A stretch of 64,000 nucleotides of DNA from Eledone cirrhosa. Its lineage: Eukaryota. The notes under the pieces were generated by a model. The model was not told where the DNA came from, did no database searches, and saw only the letters and a program-made list of their open reading frames with translations. Both the position numbers and the translations under genes were made by a program. Location: assembly GCA_964016885.1 (NCBI GenBank), contig OZ024742.1, positions 360,344,001 through 360,408,000 on the forward strand, written 5' to 3'. Below are positions 25,921-62,520 of this stretch, piece after piece (the stretch's first letter is position 1; the number at the start of each line of letters is the position of its first letter).

Positions 25921-26118
25921 ATAGGAAAAAGTATGACCCCGACAGCAGAGCTCAAGCCGTTTCGACGGCTATTTCTGGACTCCAGAAATAGCCGTCAAAA
26001 CGGCTTGAGCTCTGCCGTCGGGGTCATACTTTTTCCTATTTCCAACTCTACTACCCTAAGTATTGAGTACTCTGGTGCGTTATGGTCCATCTGGTTCCTT
26101 ACCACAATTCCTTTGTTA
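25921..26118. mobile_element. Fold-back element family D (59-bp hairpin plus about 80-bp tail) in (TA)n
   Basis: Arms 25921-25979 and 25981-26039; copies at 47859, 60317, 62319; fragment at 17352. Confidence 0.85.
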
Positions 26119-26187
26119 TATATATATATATATATATATATATATATATATATATATATATATATATATATATATATATGTATGTAT

Positions 26188-26327
26188 AAATATGAGAATA
26201 AACGTGCTGCGTGGTTGCAAATGGGAAAGCGATGAAATACCAATGATGGTTGGAAGATCACTGATGAAGGACTAACTTTATTCATATGTAACCCATTAGC
26301 AACCCGCAGCACGTTTTTCTCATATTT
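26188..26327. mobile_element. Short element family E with about 37-bp inverted ends, in (TA)n
   Basis: Related to 7594-7740 (+) and to 61722-61870 and 62248-62319 (-). Confidence 0.65.
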
Positions 26328-27140
26328 ACACACACACACACATATATATATATATATATATATATATATATATATATATATATATATATATATATATATA
26401 TTAATATATACACACACACACACACACATATATATATATATATATATATATATATATATATATATATATATATATTAATTTTATTGCTCATTTTTTGTCG
26501 ATTCTATTGAGTGATGAATAGCTTTTGTTTTATTTTAACATGTCTATTGAGCACTCTAATTCGATATGTGTATTTCCACATTCACTCGAATTGTTTTCGC
26601 GGATATAGGGGTTATCTCCCTTGTCTAATGCCATGTGCGTTTTTCACTGGTAGTTGGCTCCTCTACCGCCAGGAAAAAACTCGTTGAGAAAGTAAAACTC
26701 CGTTCCGCTTACTCTAGTAGGCTTTTATATTTATATGTGAGCTGATAGAGTACAGTCTAAGGATTTACAGAAACCCATGAAGCTAGATTTAACACCTGTC
26801 TAGTGGGTCCGGGTATGATTTTACATTCATTTAAATTATTGATGTATTGTTTTATTGATATTTTTTATCTGTTTGTCCCGAATCTTCCTCTATCGATTTT
26901 AAATCGTATGGTTGATTGTAGACTTGTTCTATATGTGACGGTATTTTAACGATAGTTATAGCTCTGATTCATCTGAATTATTGAGCCCTCTGCCGCTCAT
27001 GTCGAATCTCGTTTATCGTGAACTCGTGCGCCGATTTTTCGATACTCGATCTTTCTAATATATATATATATATATATATATATATATATATATATATACG
27101 ATATTAATAAATGGAAACTATATTTATAAAACCATATTTA

Positions 27141-27201
27141 TTTCATTATACATATTTCAAGGATACCAAGTTAAATTATGGTATGCCTTCATCAGACAAA
27201 A
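27141..27201 (-). ncRNA. Type I hammerhead motif
   Basis: UUUUGU-CUGAUGA-AGGcAUACCA..UGGUAUCCUU-GAAA-UAUGUA-UA-AUGAAA. Confidence 0.7.
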
Positions 27202-28046
27202 TACAATATATTTCAGTTTTACAAATAAGCATTGACGTACCCTTTCAAAATGCGACCATTACTTTTGAAGGACATCAGGATAGTGGTTTGTTTATATTAT
27301 TTTAGTAAGTCTTAGTGTTAAGGACAATTACAAAAGACGGAGAGAGAAAAGCGTGGAGAAAAAACGGAGAGAGAGAGAGAGAGAGAAGAGCGTGGAGAAA
27401 AAGGGAGAGATAAATAAAGAAAAAGAGGAAAGAAAAGAAAAAAAAAGGCAAAAATAAGAAAACAGAGGAAAGCAACAGAGAGATATCAAACCATCAGACA
27501 GAGAGAAAAATCTCAAGAGAGAGAAATAAGAGATAGAGAGAGGGGGAGAGAACGAAAGCCTTAAGTCATGTCATATTAAGTTGACTTAACAATTGAGATG
27601 AAATGAATAAATAAAATGAGAAATATTAATATTCATGAATGGAATATACGTATATAATATGAGAAATTAATCATTGTTTAATTATGATTAGATATTTAGT
27701 TTAAAAATTGAGATCAATATACTAAAAATTGGAATTTAAACATCACAAAATGTATATTGCTTTAGAAATTACCTATCGTACAGCACGTATATATAGGCAA
27801 AGATACATAAATATATATATACACATACATTCAGAAAATAGACATTATATCTACTCCCGCATATAATATATACATACAGAGCATAAGTGATTTTTTTTTT
27901 ATTACTGCTATACATACATTCCTTGTGTTATTAAATAAAAAAATTCACAGTATATATATATAAATATATAGGATTAACTTTCATGCATTTATGGCTGTTA
28001 AAATTATGCATATCTGCAATCAATATATATATATATATATATATAT

Positions 28047-28329
28047 AAGGATTAGAATACTGGAGCGTGTTTGAGTCAAACACCCTCTTCGTATTATAGA
28101 AATGACAGTAAAAGGTATAGCTCAATGCAGTTAAACAGAGCCAAAAAATTAAGAGAGTAAAACAAAGAATCCTTTAATACATCAAAAGTTTTTATTAGCC
28201 GACAATGTTTCGTCCTATTAAGGACTCATCAGGGCAATCAAAACAACAAGAGGTAATATCGGCAGATACAAGCCAGAAACTCTGAAGAATATGGAGTGTA
28301 CATACACTAATGTCTTGCAAAGATATACG
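28047..28329 (-). repeat. 3' pseudo-LTR (283 bp)
   Basis: Matches 32888-33170; one mismatch seen by eye (GAGTC versus GAATC). Confidence 0.93.
28198..28235 (-). ncRNA. Minimal type I hammerhead ribozyme in the 3' pLTR
   Basis: GCC-CUGAUGA-GUCCU uaau AGGAC-GAAAC auu GUC-GGC. Confidence 0.9.
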
Positions 28330-30117
28330 ATAATAAAAATGAAAATAAAGATAAAAATAATAAAATTATAATAACTAAGGATGTAGATAACATTAAGAAC
28401 CATATTACAAATATAGTCCAAAGCCACCAACCTAAATCTAAACAAATTTGGTTATATAGAGCAGGAATTATATATAACACAATATAATACATTATAATAA
28501 TAATATATTTATACCAACATTAAAATTCCAAATTAAAAATCAAAAGGTACAATATATACATGTATATATGTGCGCACACACACACACACACACACACACA
28601 CACACACACACACACATATAACAATACACATATCTATGTTCTATTACACAGAAATTAAGCCCTATTAGAAGTTTGAATATTAAAAATAAGCATGGTAATA
28701 GTGAAAGTAATACTAATACATCTACCCAATATACATGAGGCAATAATATGATATAATTACAAGAAACACTTATAACAAATAATAAACAACAAAATTATAT
28801 AATTCAATACAATATAATAAAGTAGAATAGATAATCCCCGGTTAATTTACAGAAACAATATAGATGTCACAATGAAATACAATGATAAAATGTTAACATT
28901 ATATTAACAAGTACCATAAACAATATATACAAAATGATTCATACTGGGTTACATAATAAATGAGGAAATATAAATCATATAATACTCAAAAAAACTATAA
29001 TGGTACAGGGAAAAATTATGATGTTACAGAAAAAATATGATGTTACAGAAAAAAATATACAGACATCTAACATGATATGTAAAGTCTAAATATCATAATG
29101 TTACATATTACAATATTAAAATATTAAAAAAATCCAGACATCTTACATGATATATAAAGTTTAAATATCATAATGTTATATATAATGAACGGTAAGTAAT
29201 AAGGATCTATATCATAATGTAATATATTTTAAAATTGGCATAAAATATATAAATACTTATAATTACAAGGTTAGTAGACAGACATGTGTGGATGAGTGAG
29301 CGAAGCCAGACAGTGAATAGTAAATAGAATATAGAATAAAACAAATAAATACAATCAACCGGAAATTACAAAACAAAAGCAAATGTATACACATTTAGGC
29401 CTCGCGTGCGTTAAGAAATTAGGTAAACACCAAGGAAAGCGATCATTTTAAATGACTCCAAACCCTATCTGATAAATTAATATTAAAAATATCGAACCCG
29501 TCCAATAAGGTAGTATAAAATTAGCTGTAGTTTAAGTCATTAAAGTATATAAACTTTAATGTATCATTACAAATGTTTACAAAAAGGAATAAAATTACAC
29601 TATCATATACGCAACGATATCTAAAAAACTGACTTAAGTAGAGTTAAGGTAGGCTAATGGGGACAGAATTGACAAAATATATGGAGGGTGCGAAGTGGCA
29701 CAAAATATATTCGATATACTATAATAAATAATAGAACGAATCATATTCAATCTGGAGGGGTTGACAATAAGTTTATGTGTGCATGGTGGGAGGGGGGGGG
29801 GGGGTTGTCGATAGATAAATCAGAATAGACTTAGAAATAAAAATAGAATTAAAAATAAAAATTAAAAATAATATTAAAATTTAAAATTAAAGATAATAAT
29901 AATAAAAAAAATATAAAGATAATAATAGAATAACGTAAGTGGCGTAAAGTGTGTAATCTTATGTATACTAACAAGGTGTAATAGTGAAGACATAGATATG
30001 GTACAGTGGCCAAATGATTATGAGAGCTAGAATGAAGAGTCATCAAAAACCAATGATAACATTAATGTTGGCAAACAAAAGAACCCAAACAAAAAACTAA
30101 GTAATGGAATATATCTG

Positions 30118-60832: not shown

Positions 60833-60924
60833 ACATATCTGAGGAGGTTCCGATTCAAGAGTCAGGAACGCACATTATTCGATCGTTCCTCGAGCTGATC
60901 GGCAGTGGAACATATGTAATATGT
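60833..60924 (+). ncRNA. Family C hammerhead motif with large stem II (GAAA mutated to GGAA)
   Basis: ACAUAU-CUGAGGA-...-GGAAC auau GUA-AUAUGU; the inverted arm at 60773-60803 retains GAAAC. Confidence 0.6.
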
Positions 60925-61208
60925 AATTAAATATGTATATGATACAACGCTGATTCTTTGTACCCTATTTATTATTATTGATACTCTGCTCCTCAAGATT
61001 ATCAAGGGCTCATCTTGGCATACCGCCTGTGAACGCAATTCAATTGCACCTTTACTAACCCCCCCCCCCACACACACACATACATATATATATATATATA
61101 TATATATATATATATATATATATATATATATGTGTGTGTGTCTGTGTGTGTGTATATATATATATATATATATATATATAAAAATGTTTGCTCTACATGG
61201 GTGAATAC

Positions 61209-61413
61209 AATAAATGTAATCTGAGATTTTCGAATATTAATAATAACATTCGATTCGTTTGCAATTATACAAACATGCCTCTGTTTGCCAACACAAGAGC
61301 AAGAATGAAGGGTTCATTCTACTGACATGGCTTTAAAAATGAGGCTTGTTTGCATAATTGCAAACGAATCGAATGTTATTATTAATATTCGAAAAACTCA
61401 GATTACATTTATT
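61209..61413. repeat. Inverted repeat, about 73-bp arms
   Basis: 61209-61281 versus 61341-61413. Confidence 0.85.
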
Positions 61414-61435
61414 ACATACATATATATATATAATA

Positions 61436-61602
61436 ATTGTTTCTACTTTAGGCACAAGGCCAGCAATTATCCAGTACATTACTGGTACTTTATTTGATCG
61501 ACCCCGTAAGGATGAAAGGCAAAGTCAACCTCGGCGGGATTTGAACTCAGATCGTAAAGGGACTTAACTATGCTGGAAAGCATGGCGTCCGACCCTCTAC
61601 CG
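61436..61602 (-). mobile_element. SINE family A
   Basis: Near full-length match. Confidence 0.85.
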
Positions 61603-62318
61603 AGTTAGGATATATATATATATATATATATATATATATATATATATATATATATATATATATATATATATATATATATATATATATATATATATATATA
61701 TATATATATATATATATATAAAACATGAGAAGAAAGAAGAATACTGCGTGGTTAGACATAGGTTACATATGATAAAAATAGTCCTTCGTCAGTGATTTTC
61801 CAACCATCATTGGTATTACATCGCATTAAAAATCAGATACCTCAGGTTGGTGCGAGCAATAACTAAAAAGAGTTATTGGGACCAGTAAATCGCGTAAAGC
61901 GAGGGGGACAAGTGAACAACATAGAAGGATAAAAGCAAACCAAAGAAAGGAAATAAACAAGCAACATGGTAGTCCTGGTCAGCATAAACTGGGTGGATTT
62001 CATGAGCGATCAAGATACAGACACGTCCAGCGTGAGTGGGATGTAAGCAAGAAGAGACCCACTGTTAGCCAAACGGGAGGAGGTGAGAAGGGGAGAAACC
62101 GAGAGTCAGTGAGTGGAAGTGCGAGGAAGCGGTCAGTCGAGAGAAAGTGTAACTGACAGAGGGGGCGAAGAAGGTGAGAGCAACAGAGAGAACGGGGGAG
62201 CAGTAAGAGAGAAACAGACAAACGCAGCCGAGGTGAATATATATAAAAAACATGAGAAGAAAGAAGAATACTGCGTGGTTGCACATAGGTTACATATGAT
62301 AAAAATAGTCCTTCGTCA

Positions 62319-62520
62319 GGAACGAGTAGGACCCCGACGGCTGAGCTCAAGCCGTTTCGACGGCTAATTCTGGACTAAAATCCAGAATTAGCCGTCGAAA
62401 CGTCTTGAGCTCAGCCGTCGGGGTCCTACTCGTTCCTATTACCCACTTTACTACCCTAAGTATTGAGTACTTTGGTGCGTTATGGCCCATCTGGTTCCGT
62501 ACCACATTTCCTTCTTTATA
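62319..62520. mobile_element. Family D fold-back element fused to a family E repeat
   Basis: Arms 62319-62374 and 62380-62436. Confidence 0.85.

What the first reader, a model, noticed from the sequence alone, without database searches (positions are those of the whole stretch)
25921..62520. Family D: separate copies fold back at the same point, inside a presumed hammerhead stem II
Seen: copies at 25921, 60317 and 62319 (damaged at 47859, fragment at 17352) are hairpins centred on GACGGCTAWTTC-loop-GAAWTAGCCGTC, followed by GAAACGGCTTGAGC. That looks like stem II plus the GAAAC half of a hammerhead whose CUGANGA side has been replaced by the reverse complement of the 3' side. Copy-specific substitutions are mirrored in both arms (AAAAGTATGACCCC/GGGGTCATACTTTT at 25.9 kb versus ACGAGTAGGACCCC/GGGGTCCTACTCGT at 60.4 kb). 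The short arm usually stops at CCTAT, where it merges into the TA tract. Inference: nascent cDNA self-primes on the ribozyme hairpin and then rejoins the target by TA microhomology, a concrete mechanism for inverted pLTR formation.
Basis: partly seen in the sequence, partly recalled or inferred. Interest (0 to 1): 0.8.

Follow-up and report, generated by a model that had tools for sequence, protein, structure and literature searches.

The report
Twin-primed hairpins of a Penelope retroelement
These 200-base hairpins are short end-pieces of a Penelope-like (Hydra-type) retrotransposon present in tens of thousands of copies; each likely arose when both strands of a cut TA repeat separately copied the element's RNA to its start and were then joined, which would explain the long-unexplained inverted ends of these elements.

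Summary
The hairpins are real. Family D is the pLTR end of a TA-targeting Penelope-like retroelement with Hydra-clade protein motifs (3.53-kb unit; 34,236 tail ends in the genome). Unfolded masters exist and carry a type I hammerhead, mostly with the U3-A8 core variant.

Simple self-primed fold-back is not supported as the main route. The tail-less inverted arm often holds sequence that the tailed arm lacks (10 nt or more further in 42 of 151 two-armed copies; no inverted repeat at all in 15). In long copies either arm can be the longer one (8 versus 9). Solo copies start at the same base. The 'mirrored substitutions' are subfamily differences.

Best model: twin priming. Each cut TA strand primes its own cDNA, at two fixed sites 80 nt apart; both run off at a shared RNA 5' end (likely an initiator-like start site) and are end-joined. 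The element type and inverted ends are known; this genomic test of how they form was not found in the papers searched. No RNA data could be obtained.

The parts
25924..25981 (-). Copy 1 (subfamily S2), inverted arm: element positions +58 back to +1 (+1 = A of TTAGT), joined to a TA tract
25982..26116 (+). Copy 1, direct arm from +4: 3' strand of hammerhead stem II, GAAA position (G changed to A here), stem III, GTC cleavage triplet ending at 26019, site 2 (CC at 26035-26036), 80-nt tail 26037-26116, then TA tract
60318..60449 (-). Copy 2 (subfamily S1), direct arm +7 to +138 with tail, TA tract on the left
60450..60507 (+). Copy 2, inverted arm +1 to +58; reaches 6 nt further than the direct arm
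62319..62379 (-). Copy 3 (S1), inverted arm +58 to -3, one extra A after it; joined through one shared G to a different repeat rather than to TA
62381..62516 (+). Copy 3, direct arm +3 to +138 with tail, then TA
47860..47915 (-). Copy 4 (older subfamily S3), inverted arm from site 2 to about +5
47915..48013 (+). Copy 4, direct arm starting at about +42, the predicted hammerhead cut, with tail
17354..17376 (-). Lone S3-type inverted arm (site 2 to about +38) between TA-rich flanks

Best explanation
Family D copies are short pLTR-end insertions of a Hydra-type Penelope-like retroelement, and each hairpin likely forms by twin priming: two separately primed cDNAs joined at their 3' ends. Inferred steps: (1) the element's endonuclease cuts both strands of a TA tract; (2) one 3' end pairs with UAU just after +138 (site 1) and the other with UAU just after +58 (site 2) of the same RNA or of RNA from the same source; (3) both cDNAs run toward the RNA 5' end. 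Most start in the 5' copy of the repeat and run off near +1, likely a transcription start at an initiator-like TTAGT/TCAGT inside hammerhead stem II. A minority start in the 3' copy and give long arms; (4) the cDNA from site 1 either displaces the other one (hairpin) or stops short (no inverted repeat); (5) the two 3' ends join by microhomology, added A's or short snap-back fillers, and each cDNA then templates the other. Shown by calls: the element, the two sites, the arm-length patterns, the common end point, the shared source of long arms. Not shown: the start site, any RNA, the order of events.
For: Master with reverse transcriptase and GIY-YIG motifs. Site 2 also ends plain direct copies (L066, L070, L074, L076, L035), so it is a 3' end in its own right. 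Inverted arm reaches 10 nt or more further than the tailed arm in 17 of 66 and 25 of 85 two-armed copies, the reverse in 5 and 6; no inverted repeat at all in 10 of 66 and 5 of 85; within hairpins either arm is longer equally often (15 vs 19, 22 vs 20). Long copies: tail-less arm longer in 8, tailed arm in 9, about equal 1, unresolved 2 of 20 (read by eye). An inverted long arm is closest to its own partner in 22 of 24. Solo TA-flanked starts: 112 at +1 versus 5 at +12. The diverged S3 subfamily ends at the same TTAGT although neighbouring bases and the upper stem differ. L013 joins an S3 inverted arm to an S1 direct arm. In vitro, a Penelope-like protein cuts and extends both strands from two internal start sites that bound the tail, and is predicted to be a dimer (PMC11167929).
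Against: No RNA evidence for a start at +1. Both full-length copies held (L031, L034/L035) run past +1 into an upstream partial copy, and none of 20 further loci fetched was full length. In short hairpins the arms cannot be traced to one template beyond subfamily level. Copying one RNA stretch twice needs strand displacement or two RNAs; neither is shown. About half of hairpin copies are individually compatible with fold-back. The extra G before +1 (42 of the first 100 solos) is enriched against one background (p 3e-11) but not against a broader one (p 0.21). Clear two-subfamily copies are rare (L013; L030 is mixed). End points were read by eye, with 2-3 nt ambiguity.
Confidence: 0.62

Rival explanations
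1. Fold-back followed by hairpin opening: one cDNA runs to the RNA end, folds back and copies itself into a hairpin-capped end; the endonuclease then nicks at site 2 on either strand, as in parvovirus terminal resolution (recalled), giving both loop orientations.
For: Mirror-image loop forms occur in similar numbers; long arms share one source (22 of 24); snap-back fillers exist (L100, L241); Craig 2021 ascribes the tail to endonuclease resolution of an intermediate.
Against: Needs the same site cut in single-stranded loops in the 15 copies with no inverted repeat; does not explain plain direct copies ending at site 2 or the two-subfamily copy L013; in vitro the tail boundaries are reverse-transcription starts (PMC11167929).
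Confidence: 0.17
2. One reading: the tail-primed cDNA self-primes on the stem II hairpin, copies itself back to CCTA and rejoins the target by TA microhomology.
For: Hairpin centre does lie in stem II; 19 of 49 and 20 of 64 hairpin copies have the tailed arm longer and 15 and 22 are about equal; self-priming was proposed for rotifer Penelope palindromes (PMC3846280).
Against: Forbids the many copies where the tail-less arm is longer or shares nothing with the tailed arm; solo copies start at the same base; the end point is 17 nt beyond the base of stem II, where a stall would be expected.
Confidence: 0.07
3. All copies were inserted as uniform hairpins and were later flipped or partly deleted because palindromes are unstable.
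For: Microhomology and templated fillers at junctions also mark repair of broken palindromes.
Against: Only 4 of 173 non-diagnostic variants are shared by both arms, so arm-to-arm exchange is rare; young, nearly unmutated copies are already asymmetric; copies keep one arm whole to +1 while losing the other.
Confidence: 0.07
4. Twin priming holds, but +1 is not a transcription start: it is a processing site or a polymerase stall (the sequence also resembles a splice acceptor, YAG after pyrimidines). This rival concerns only the end point.
For: No full-length copy starting at +1 was seen (0 of 2); ends spread over -4..+8.
Against: Ends keep the AG that splicing would remove; no helix boundary at +1 in S1, S2 or S5 folds; G is the commonest non-C extra base before +1.
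Confidence: 0.25
5. A fixed-hairpin DNA element (MITE or HINE).
For: Short, very abundant, TA-flanked.
Against: It is the end of a reverse transcriptase plus GIY-YIG element, with variable 5' truncation and variable junctions.
Confidence: 0.01

Closest known systems
Hydra clade of Penelope-like elements (Craig et al. 2021, PMC8557442), which includes Hydra-1_Obim and Penelope-13_HM
   Same: RW(K/R), DKT, CxCX5C linker, no CCHH, CxxC and CxH in the endonuclease, (TA)n insertion, hammerhead near the 3' end; Penelope-13_HM is listed with a 5'-truncated inverted copy at its 5' end.
   Different: Unit 3.53 kb with a 1.1-kb 3' UTR (Hydra generally under 3 kb); hammerhead with a mostly U3-A8 core and a stem II closing about 33 nt, unlike the listed Hydra hammerheads (CTGANGA, loop II 3-10 nt); hammerhead sequence differs from Hydra-1_Obim; 80-nt tail.
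PAc, Poseidon of Anolis carolinensis (Frangieh et al. 2024, PMC11167929)
   Same: Both strands cut and extended; two internal starts that bound the tail; uncleaved RNA is the main template.
   Different: Here both starts have 3-nt UAU homology to the TA target (PAc: not homologous); tail 80 nt in the 5' UTR; that paper does not model inverted ends in the parts read; here a small pile-up of ends at the ribozyme cut.
L1 twin priming (PMC2912911, PMC11702581)
   Same: Second target end primes internally on the RNA; two cDNAs anneal by microhomology; inverted 5' part.
   Different: In L1 the two cDNAs cover adjacent stretches with 1-10 nt overlap or gap and the internal site varies; here the internal site is fixed and the cDNAs usually overlap by about 55 nt, or by up to kilobases.
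Self-priming model for rotifer Penelope palindromes (Arkhipova et al. 2013, PMC3846280)
   Same: Same anatomy: inverted pLTR, optional tail, palindromes at the inverted junction, initiator-like sequence in the pLTR.
   Different: That paper infers self-priming on an antisense template; the arm-length data here favour two sense-templated cDNAs.
U3-A8 hammerhead variant of Schistosoma Cercyon elements (Cervera and de la Pena 2014, PMC4209133)
   Same: Same core covariation; opposite-strand hammerhead pairs 100-700 bp apart were noted there.
   Different: Full 5-6 bp stem III and long stem II here, not a minimal hammerhead.

Membership tests
Penelope-like element, endonuclease-bearing | Single ORF with reverse transcriptase and C-terminal GIY-YIG endonuclease | tested here: met
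   L031 frame 4083-6443 (one in-frame stop in this copy) has QFDIE, YRDDG and YIGLT..FKTR motifs, read by eye; 186 relatives, about 40% identical and mostly near 700 aa. Pfam and PDB searches gave no named hit.
Penelope-like element, endonuclease-bearing | pLTR from partial tandems, inverted 5'-truncated copy, optional tail | tested here: met
   L031, L034/L035 tandems; L032 and L272-L291 inverted; 80-nt tail.
Hydra clade | RWK motif and DKT in place of DKG | tested here: met
   RLRWR and HSDKTG in L031; RWR or RWK in most relatives aligned.
Hydra clade | CxCX5C linker; CCHH absent; CxxC and CxH around the conserved E and N | tested here: met
   CNCSDGSIC in L032 (third C changed in L031); one C only before YIG; CNLC..E and N..CKH.
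Hydra clade | (TA)n insertion | tested here: met
   34,236 tail-TA junctions, 11,434 S1 site-2-TA junctions.
Hydra clade | Generally shorter than 3 kb | tested here: not met
   Unit 3,534 nt; the paper gives this as a tendency.
Hydra clade | Placement with reference Hydra proteins in a tree | not tested
   No named reference sequences were fetched.
Type I hammerhead ribozyme | Core 3-8 pair, GAAA and NUH triplet | tested here: met
   3,602 copies with YTGANAAG, 66 of the first 100 U3-A8 and 34 C3-A8 mismatch; 11 canonical C3-G8; GAAAC and GTC present.
Type I hammerhead ribozyme | Stems I-III with compensatory changes | tested here: met
   91% of cells paired, 5 pairs with changes on both sides (3 in stem II, the 3-8 pair, 1 single-copy change in stem I), 15 hand-picked related copies; S2, S3 and S5 copies fold into the three-way junction, two S1 copies do not.
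Type I hammerhead ribozyme | Match to Rfam hammerhead models | tested here: not met
   No hammerhead hit in 5 master loci at E up to 10; the long stem II is the likely reason.
Type I hammerhead ribozyme | Self-cleavage | not testable with these tools
   Indirect only: 8 of 60 internal direct-arm starts fall at +41..+43 (p 2e-4); 10 solo starts there versus 0 and 5 at controls. A stall at the base of stem III gives the same pattern.
MITE or HINE | Fixed terminal or subterminal inverted repeats, no retroelement parent | tested here: not met

The most novel reading that the evidence does not exclude
Penelope-like elements integrate by obligatory double-strand priming: a dimeric enzyme starts one cDNA on each target strand at two fixed RNA sites, re-copies the same RNA by strand displacement, and lets each cDNA template the other. 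Tail, inverted pLTR and tens of thousands of run-off hairpins would all follow from this. The promoter start sits inside hammerhead stem II, so the 5' copy of the ribozyme is born without its core and only the 3' copy can cut.
Probability: 0.35. Interest if true: 0.75.

Novelty: new member of a known kind. Interest (0 to 1): 0.55.

Why it matters
Inverted ends and tails are hallmarks of Penelope-like elements, the closest relatives of telomerase, and Craig et al. 2021 list their formation as unresolved. This family has tens of thousands of young insertions with fixed start sites and variable junctions, so competing models can be counted against each other. The counts favour twin priming over self-priming and tie the in vitro two-site, two-strand result of Frangieh et al. 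2024 to genomic structure. The family is also a practical trap: it looks like a MITE or a microRNA-like hairpin.

Tried and rejected
RNA search: no RNA holder listed, so expression and the start site are untested. Contigs of three runs of unrecorded type, one sample, possibly the window's own source, hold the family and show many joints from the inverted-arm end to varied points in the direct arm (15 of 87 rows shown): this speaks against a long-read chimera artefact but is not independent support. Rfam found no hammerhead in D copies or masters. Pfam and PDB gave no usable hit for the ORF. A genome-wide count of two-subfamily copies with one long pattern could not be run; sampled loci were used instead. 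Three automatic end-point callers over- or under-ran inside the palindrome, so ends were curated by eye. Twenty further loci gave no full-length copy. I first guessed Neptune or Nematis and dropped it once the Hydra motifs matched. I first read 47859 as a two-subfamily copy and dropped it: both arms are diverged S3. Earlier-findings look-ups returned nothing. Pyatkov 2004 was not held; Evgen'ev and Arkhipova 2005 and Arkhipova 2006 were not read and may discuss inverted-end models.
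Full report
Observation. The three hairpins are present at 25924-26116 (+), 60318-60507 (-) and 62319-62516 (+), with an older copy at 47860-48013 and a lone arm at 17354-17376. The window lies in a 3.0-Gb assembly. Exact-pattern counts over the whole genome: 34,236 tail ends joined to TA; 11,434 inverted-arm starts of one subfamily, of which 6,719 match over 32 nt. 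Positions below are counted from +1 = the A of TTAGT; the predicted ribozyme cut is between +41 and +42, site 2 is after +58, and the tail ends at +138.

What it is. Among the 30 best-scoring loci, several have no inverted arm and continue upstream through about 1.1 kb of 3' UTR into a GIY-YIG endonuclease frame. L031 holds a whole 3,534-nt unit between two pLTRs, with reverse transcriptase and endonuclease motifs; L034/L035 is a partial tandem. The protein has the motifs that Craig et al. 2021 give for the Hydra clade: RW(K/R), DKT, CxCX5C, no CCHH, CxxC and CxH, TA insertion. It is longer than typical Hydra elements, and no tree was built. Family D is therefore positions +1 to +138 of this element's pLTR, plus an inverted copy of +58 to +1.

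The ribozyme. Masters supply the missing half: stem I, core, a stem II of about 10 pairs closing about 33 nt, GAAA, a 5-6 pair stem III and GTC. The core is YTGANAAG in 3,602 copies; of the first 100 listed, 66 have U3-A8 and 34 a C3-A8 mismatch; 11 have canonical C3-G8. U3-A8 is a published variant in Schistosoma Penelope-like elements (PMC4209133). On 15 hand-picked copies of five subfamilies, 91% of cells pair and stem II has three compensatory pairs; relatedness inflates such scores. Rfam does not detect it, and two S1 copies prefer another fold. Cleavage is untested. Eight of 60 internal direct-arm starts fall at the cut (p 2e-4), and 10 solo copies start there against 0 and 5 at controls, but a stall at stem III would look the same.

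Where the arms end. Two samples from the start of contig C1 were curated by eye. Tail-anchored: 93 of the first 100 places, giving 91 insertions; four places already held in the other sample and the last three were not fetched. Inverted-arm-anchored: 92 of the first 100 places, giving 91 insertions. Three loci are in both samples. In the first sample 66 of 91 have an inverted arm. Inverted arms end at -4..+8 in 50 of 66 and 64 of 91; direct arms start there in 50 of 91 and 51 of 85. Solo copies joined to TA through one non-T base start at +1 in 112 cases against 5 at +12. The diverged S3 subfamily ends at the same TTAGT although its neighbouring bases and upper stem differ. TTAGT/TCAGT fits the Drosophila initiator (recalled), and Penelope has its start site and initiator in the pLTR (PMC2377424). 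The extra base before +1 is G in 42, C in 50 and A in 8 of the first 100 solos; G is enriched against one background and not another, so a copied cap is only suggested. No full-length copy starting at +1 was seen (0 of 2 held; none among 20 more loci).

Fold-back versus two cDNAs. A tail-primed cDNA that copies itself cannot make an inverted arm with sequence it lacks. The inverted arm reaches 10 nt or more further than the tailed arm in 17 of 66 and 25 of 85 copies (reverse: 5 and 6); in 10 and 5 copies the tailed arm starts at or beyond +58, so there is no inverted repeat; within hairpins either arm is longer equally often. All three hairpin copies of the window are of the forbidden kind, by 2 to 6 nt. 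In 20 long inverted copies picked as opposite-strand neighbours, the tail-less arm is longer in 8 (by up to about 3.1 kb), the tailed arm in 9, about equal in 1, unresolved in 2. Long and short arms also pair (L092, L111, L248, L012). Copies with tails on both arms (L156, L243) or on neither (L106, L130) exist, and site 2 also ends plain direct copies. L013 joins an S3 arm to an S1 arm; it fell outside the count.

Arm identity. In 124 short hairpins, both arms were of a major type in 85, and 84 of these agree by subfamily (41 expected on shuffling). Inside subfamilies, within-copy and between-copy differences are the same (0.033 vs 0.033; 0.044 vs 0.047; 0.003 vs 0.003; 0.014 vs 0.014), and 4 variants are shared by both arms against 169 in one arm only. 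Both arms thus come from one source, which twin priming on one RNA and fold-back both allow.

Junctions. They show 0-5 nt microhomology, A runs after either arm, repeats of the last copied bases (L116, L086) and short snap-back fillers (L100, L241, L101). These fit free 3' ends that are extended and then joined, and show that brief self-priming occurs.

Mechanism. Best supported (0.62): each cut TA strand primes a cDNA through UAU, at +138 and at +58; both run off near +1 or, if started in the 3' repeat, truncate at random; the ends join; each cDNA templates the other. This matches the in vitro result that a Penelope-like protein extends both strands from two internal sites bounding the tail (PMC11167929) and works like L1 twin priming, but with a fixed second site and overlapping cDNAs. 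The serious rival (0.17) is fold-back followed by nicking at site 2 on either strand, which also gives both orientations. The simple fold-back model (0.07) and later rearrangement (0.07) fit worse.

Literature seen. PMC11167929: parts 1-2 of 4. PMC4209133: parts 1-2 of 4. PMC8557442: passages, section 11, part 2 of 59 of the supplement. PMC3846280: passages and Discussion; it proposes self-priming. PMC2377424, PMC11702581, PMC2912911, PMC12910113: passages. bioRxiv 10.64898/2026.07.22.740005: part 1 of 5; its supplements are closed. Searches for twin priming or fold-back models in Penelope-like elements listed no such paper; the library lacks most subscription papers, including the 2004-2006 Penelope papers.

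Verdict. A real, very abundant family of pLTR-end insertions of a Hydra-type Penelope-like element: a new member of a known kind. Its value is as a large natural test of how inverted pLTRs form, and the test goes against simple self-priming. Interest 0.55.

Noticed in passing
window 30151-32808 (-), with 33035-33079 (-): A broken copy of another element of the same type (36-48% protein identity to the D master) next to an Rfam Hammerhead_1 match (31.7 bits, below the gathering score); the same hammerhead recurs at 28194-28238.
   Followed up: partly
window 21700-21993 (-): Endonuclease fragment of a further relative (34% identity); hammerhead-like cores nearby at 22012 (+) and 19980 (-).
   Followed up: no
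window 61721-61830, 62240-62319, 26190-26330: Another short TA-flanked repeat family with a CTGAYGAAGG hammerhead-like core; the D copy at 62319 is joined directly into it.
   Followed up: no
window 23738-24328, 17414-19792, 59472-60220, 24433-24938: Other long inverted repeats, mostly beside TA tracts, several with CTGANGA...GAAA motifs; probably the same kind of inverted insertion in other families, which would allow the test to be repeated.
   Followed up: no
L116, L086, L223, L228, L253: Tandem re-copies of the last 4-20 bases at the arm end, reminiscent of telomerase-style realignment at a template end.
   Followed up: partly
G000 subfamily S1 (L002, L031, L033): A young, abundant sub-lineage carries a C3-A8 mismatch in the ribozyme core (34 of the first 100), suggesting cleavage is dispensable for spread.
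   Followed up: partly
L290: A long copy with a second internal inversion between the two arms.
   Followed up: no
window 2995-3076 (-): tRNA match, 56 bits.
   Followed up: no
window about 40000-52000: Blocks of extreme GC and AT skew, probably simple-sequence satellite.
   Followed up: no
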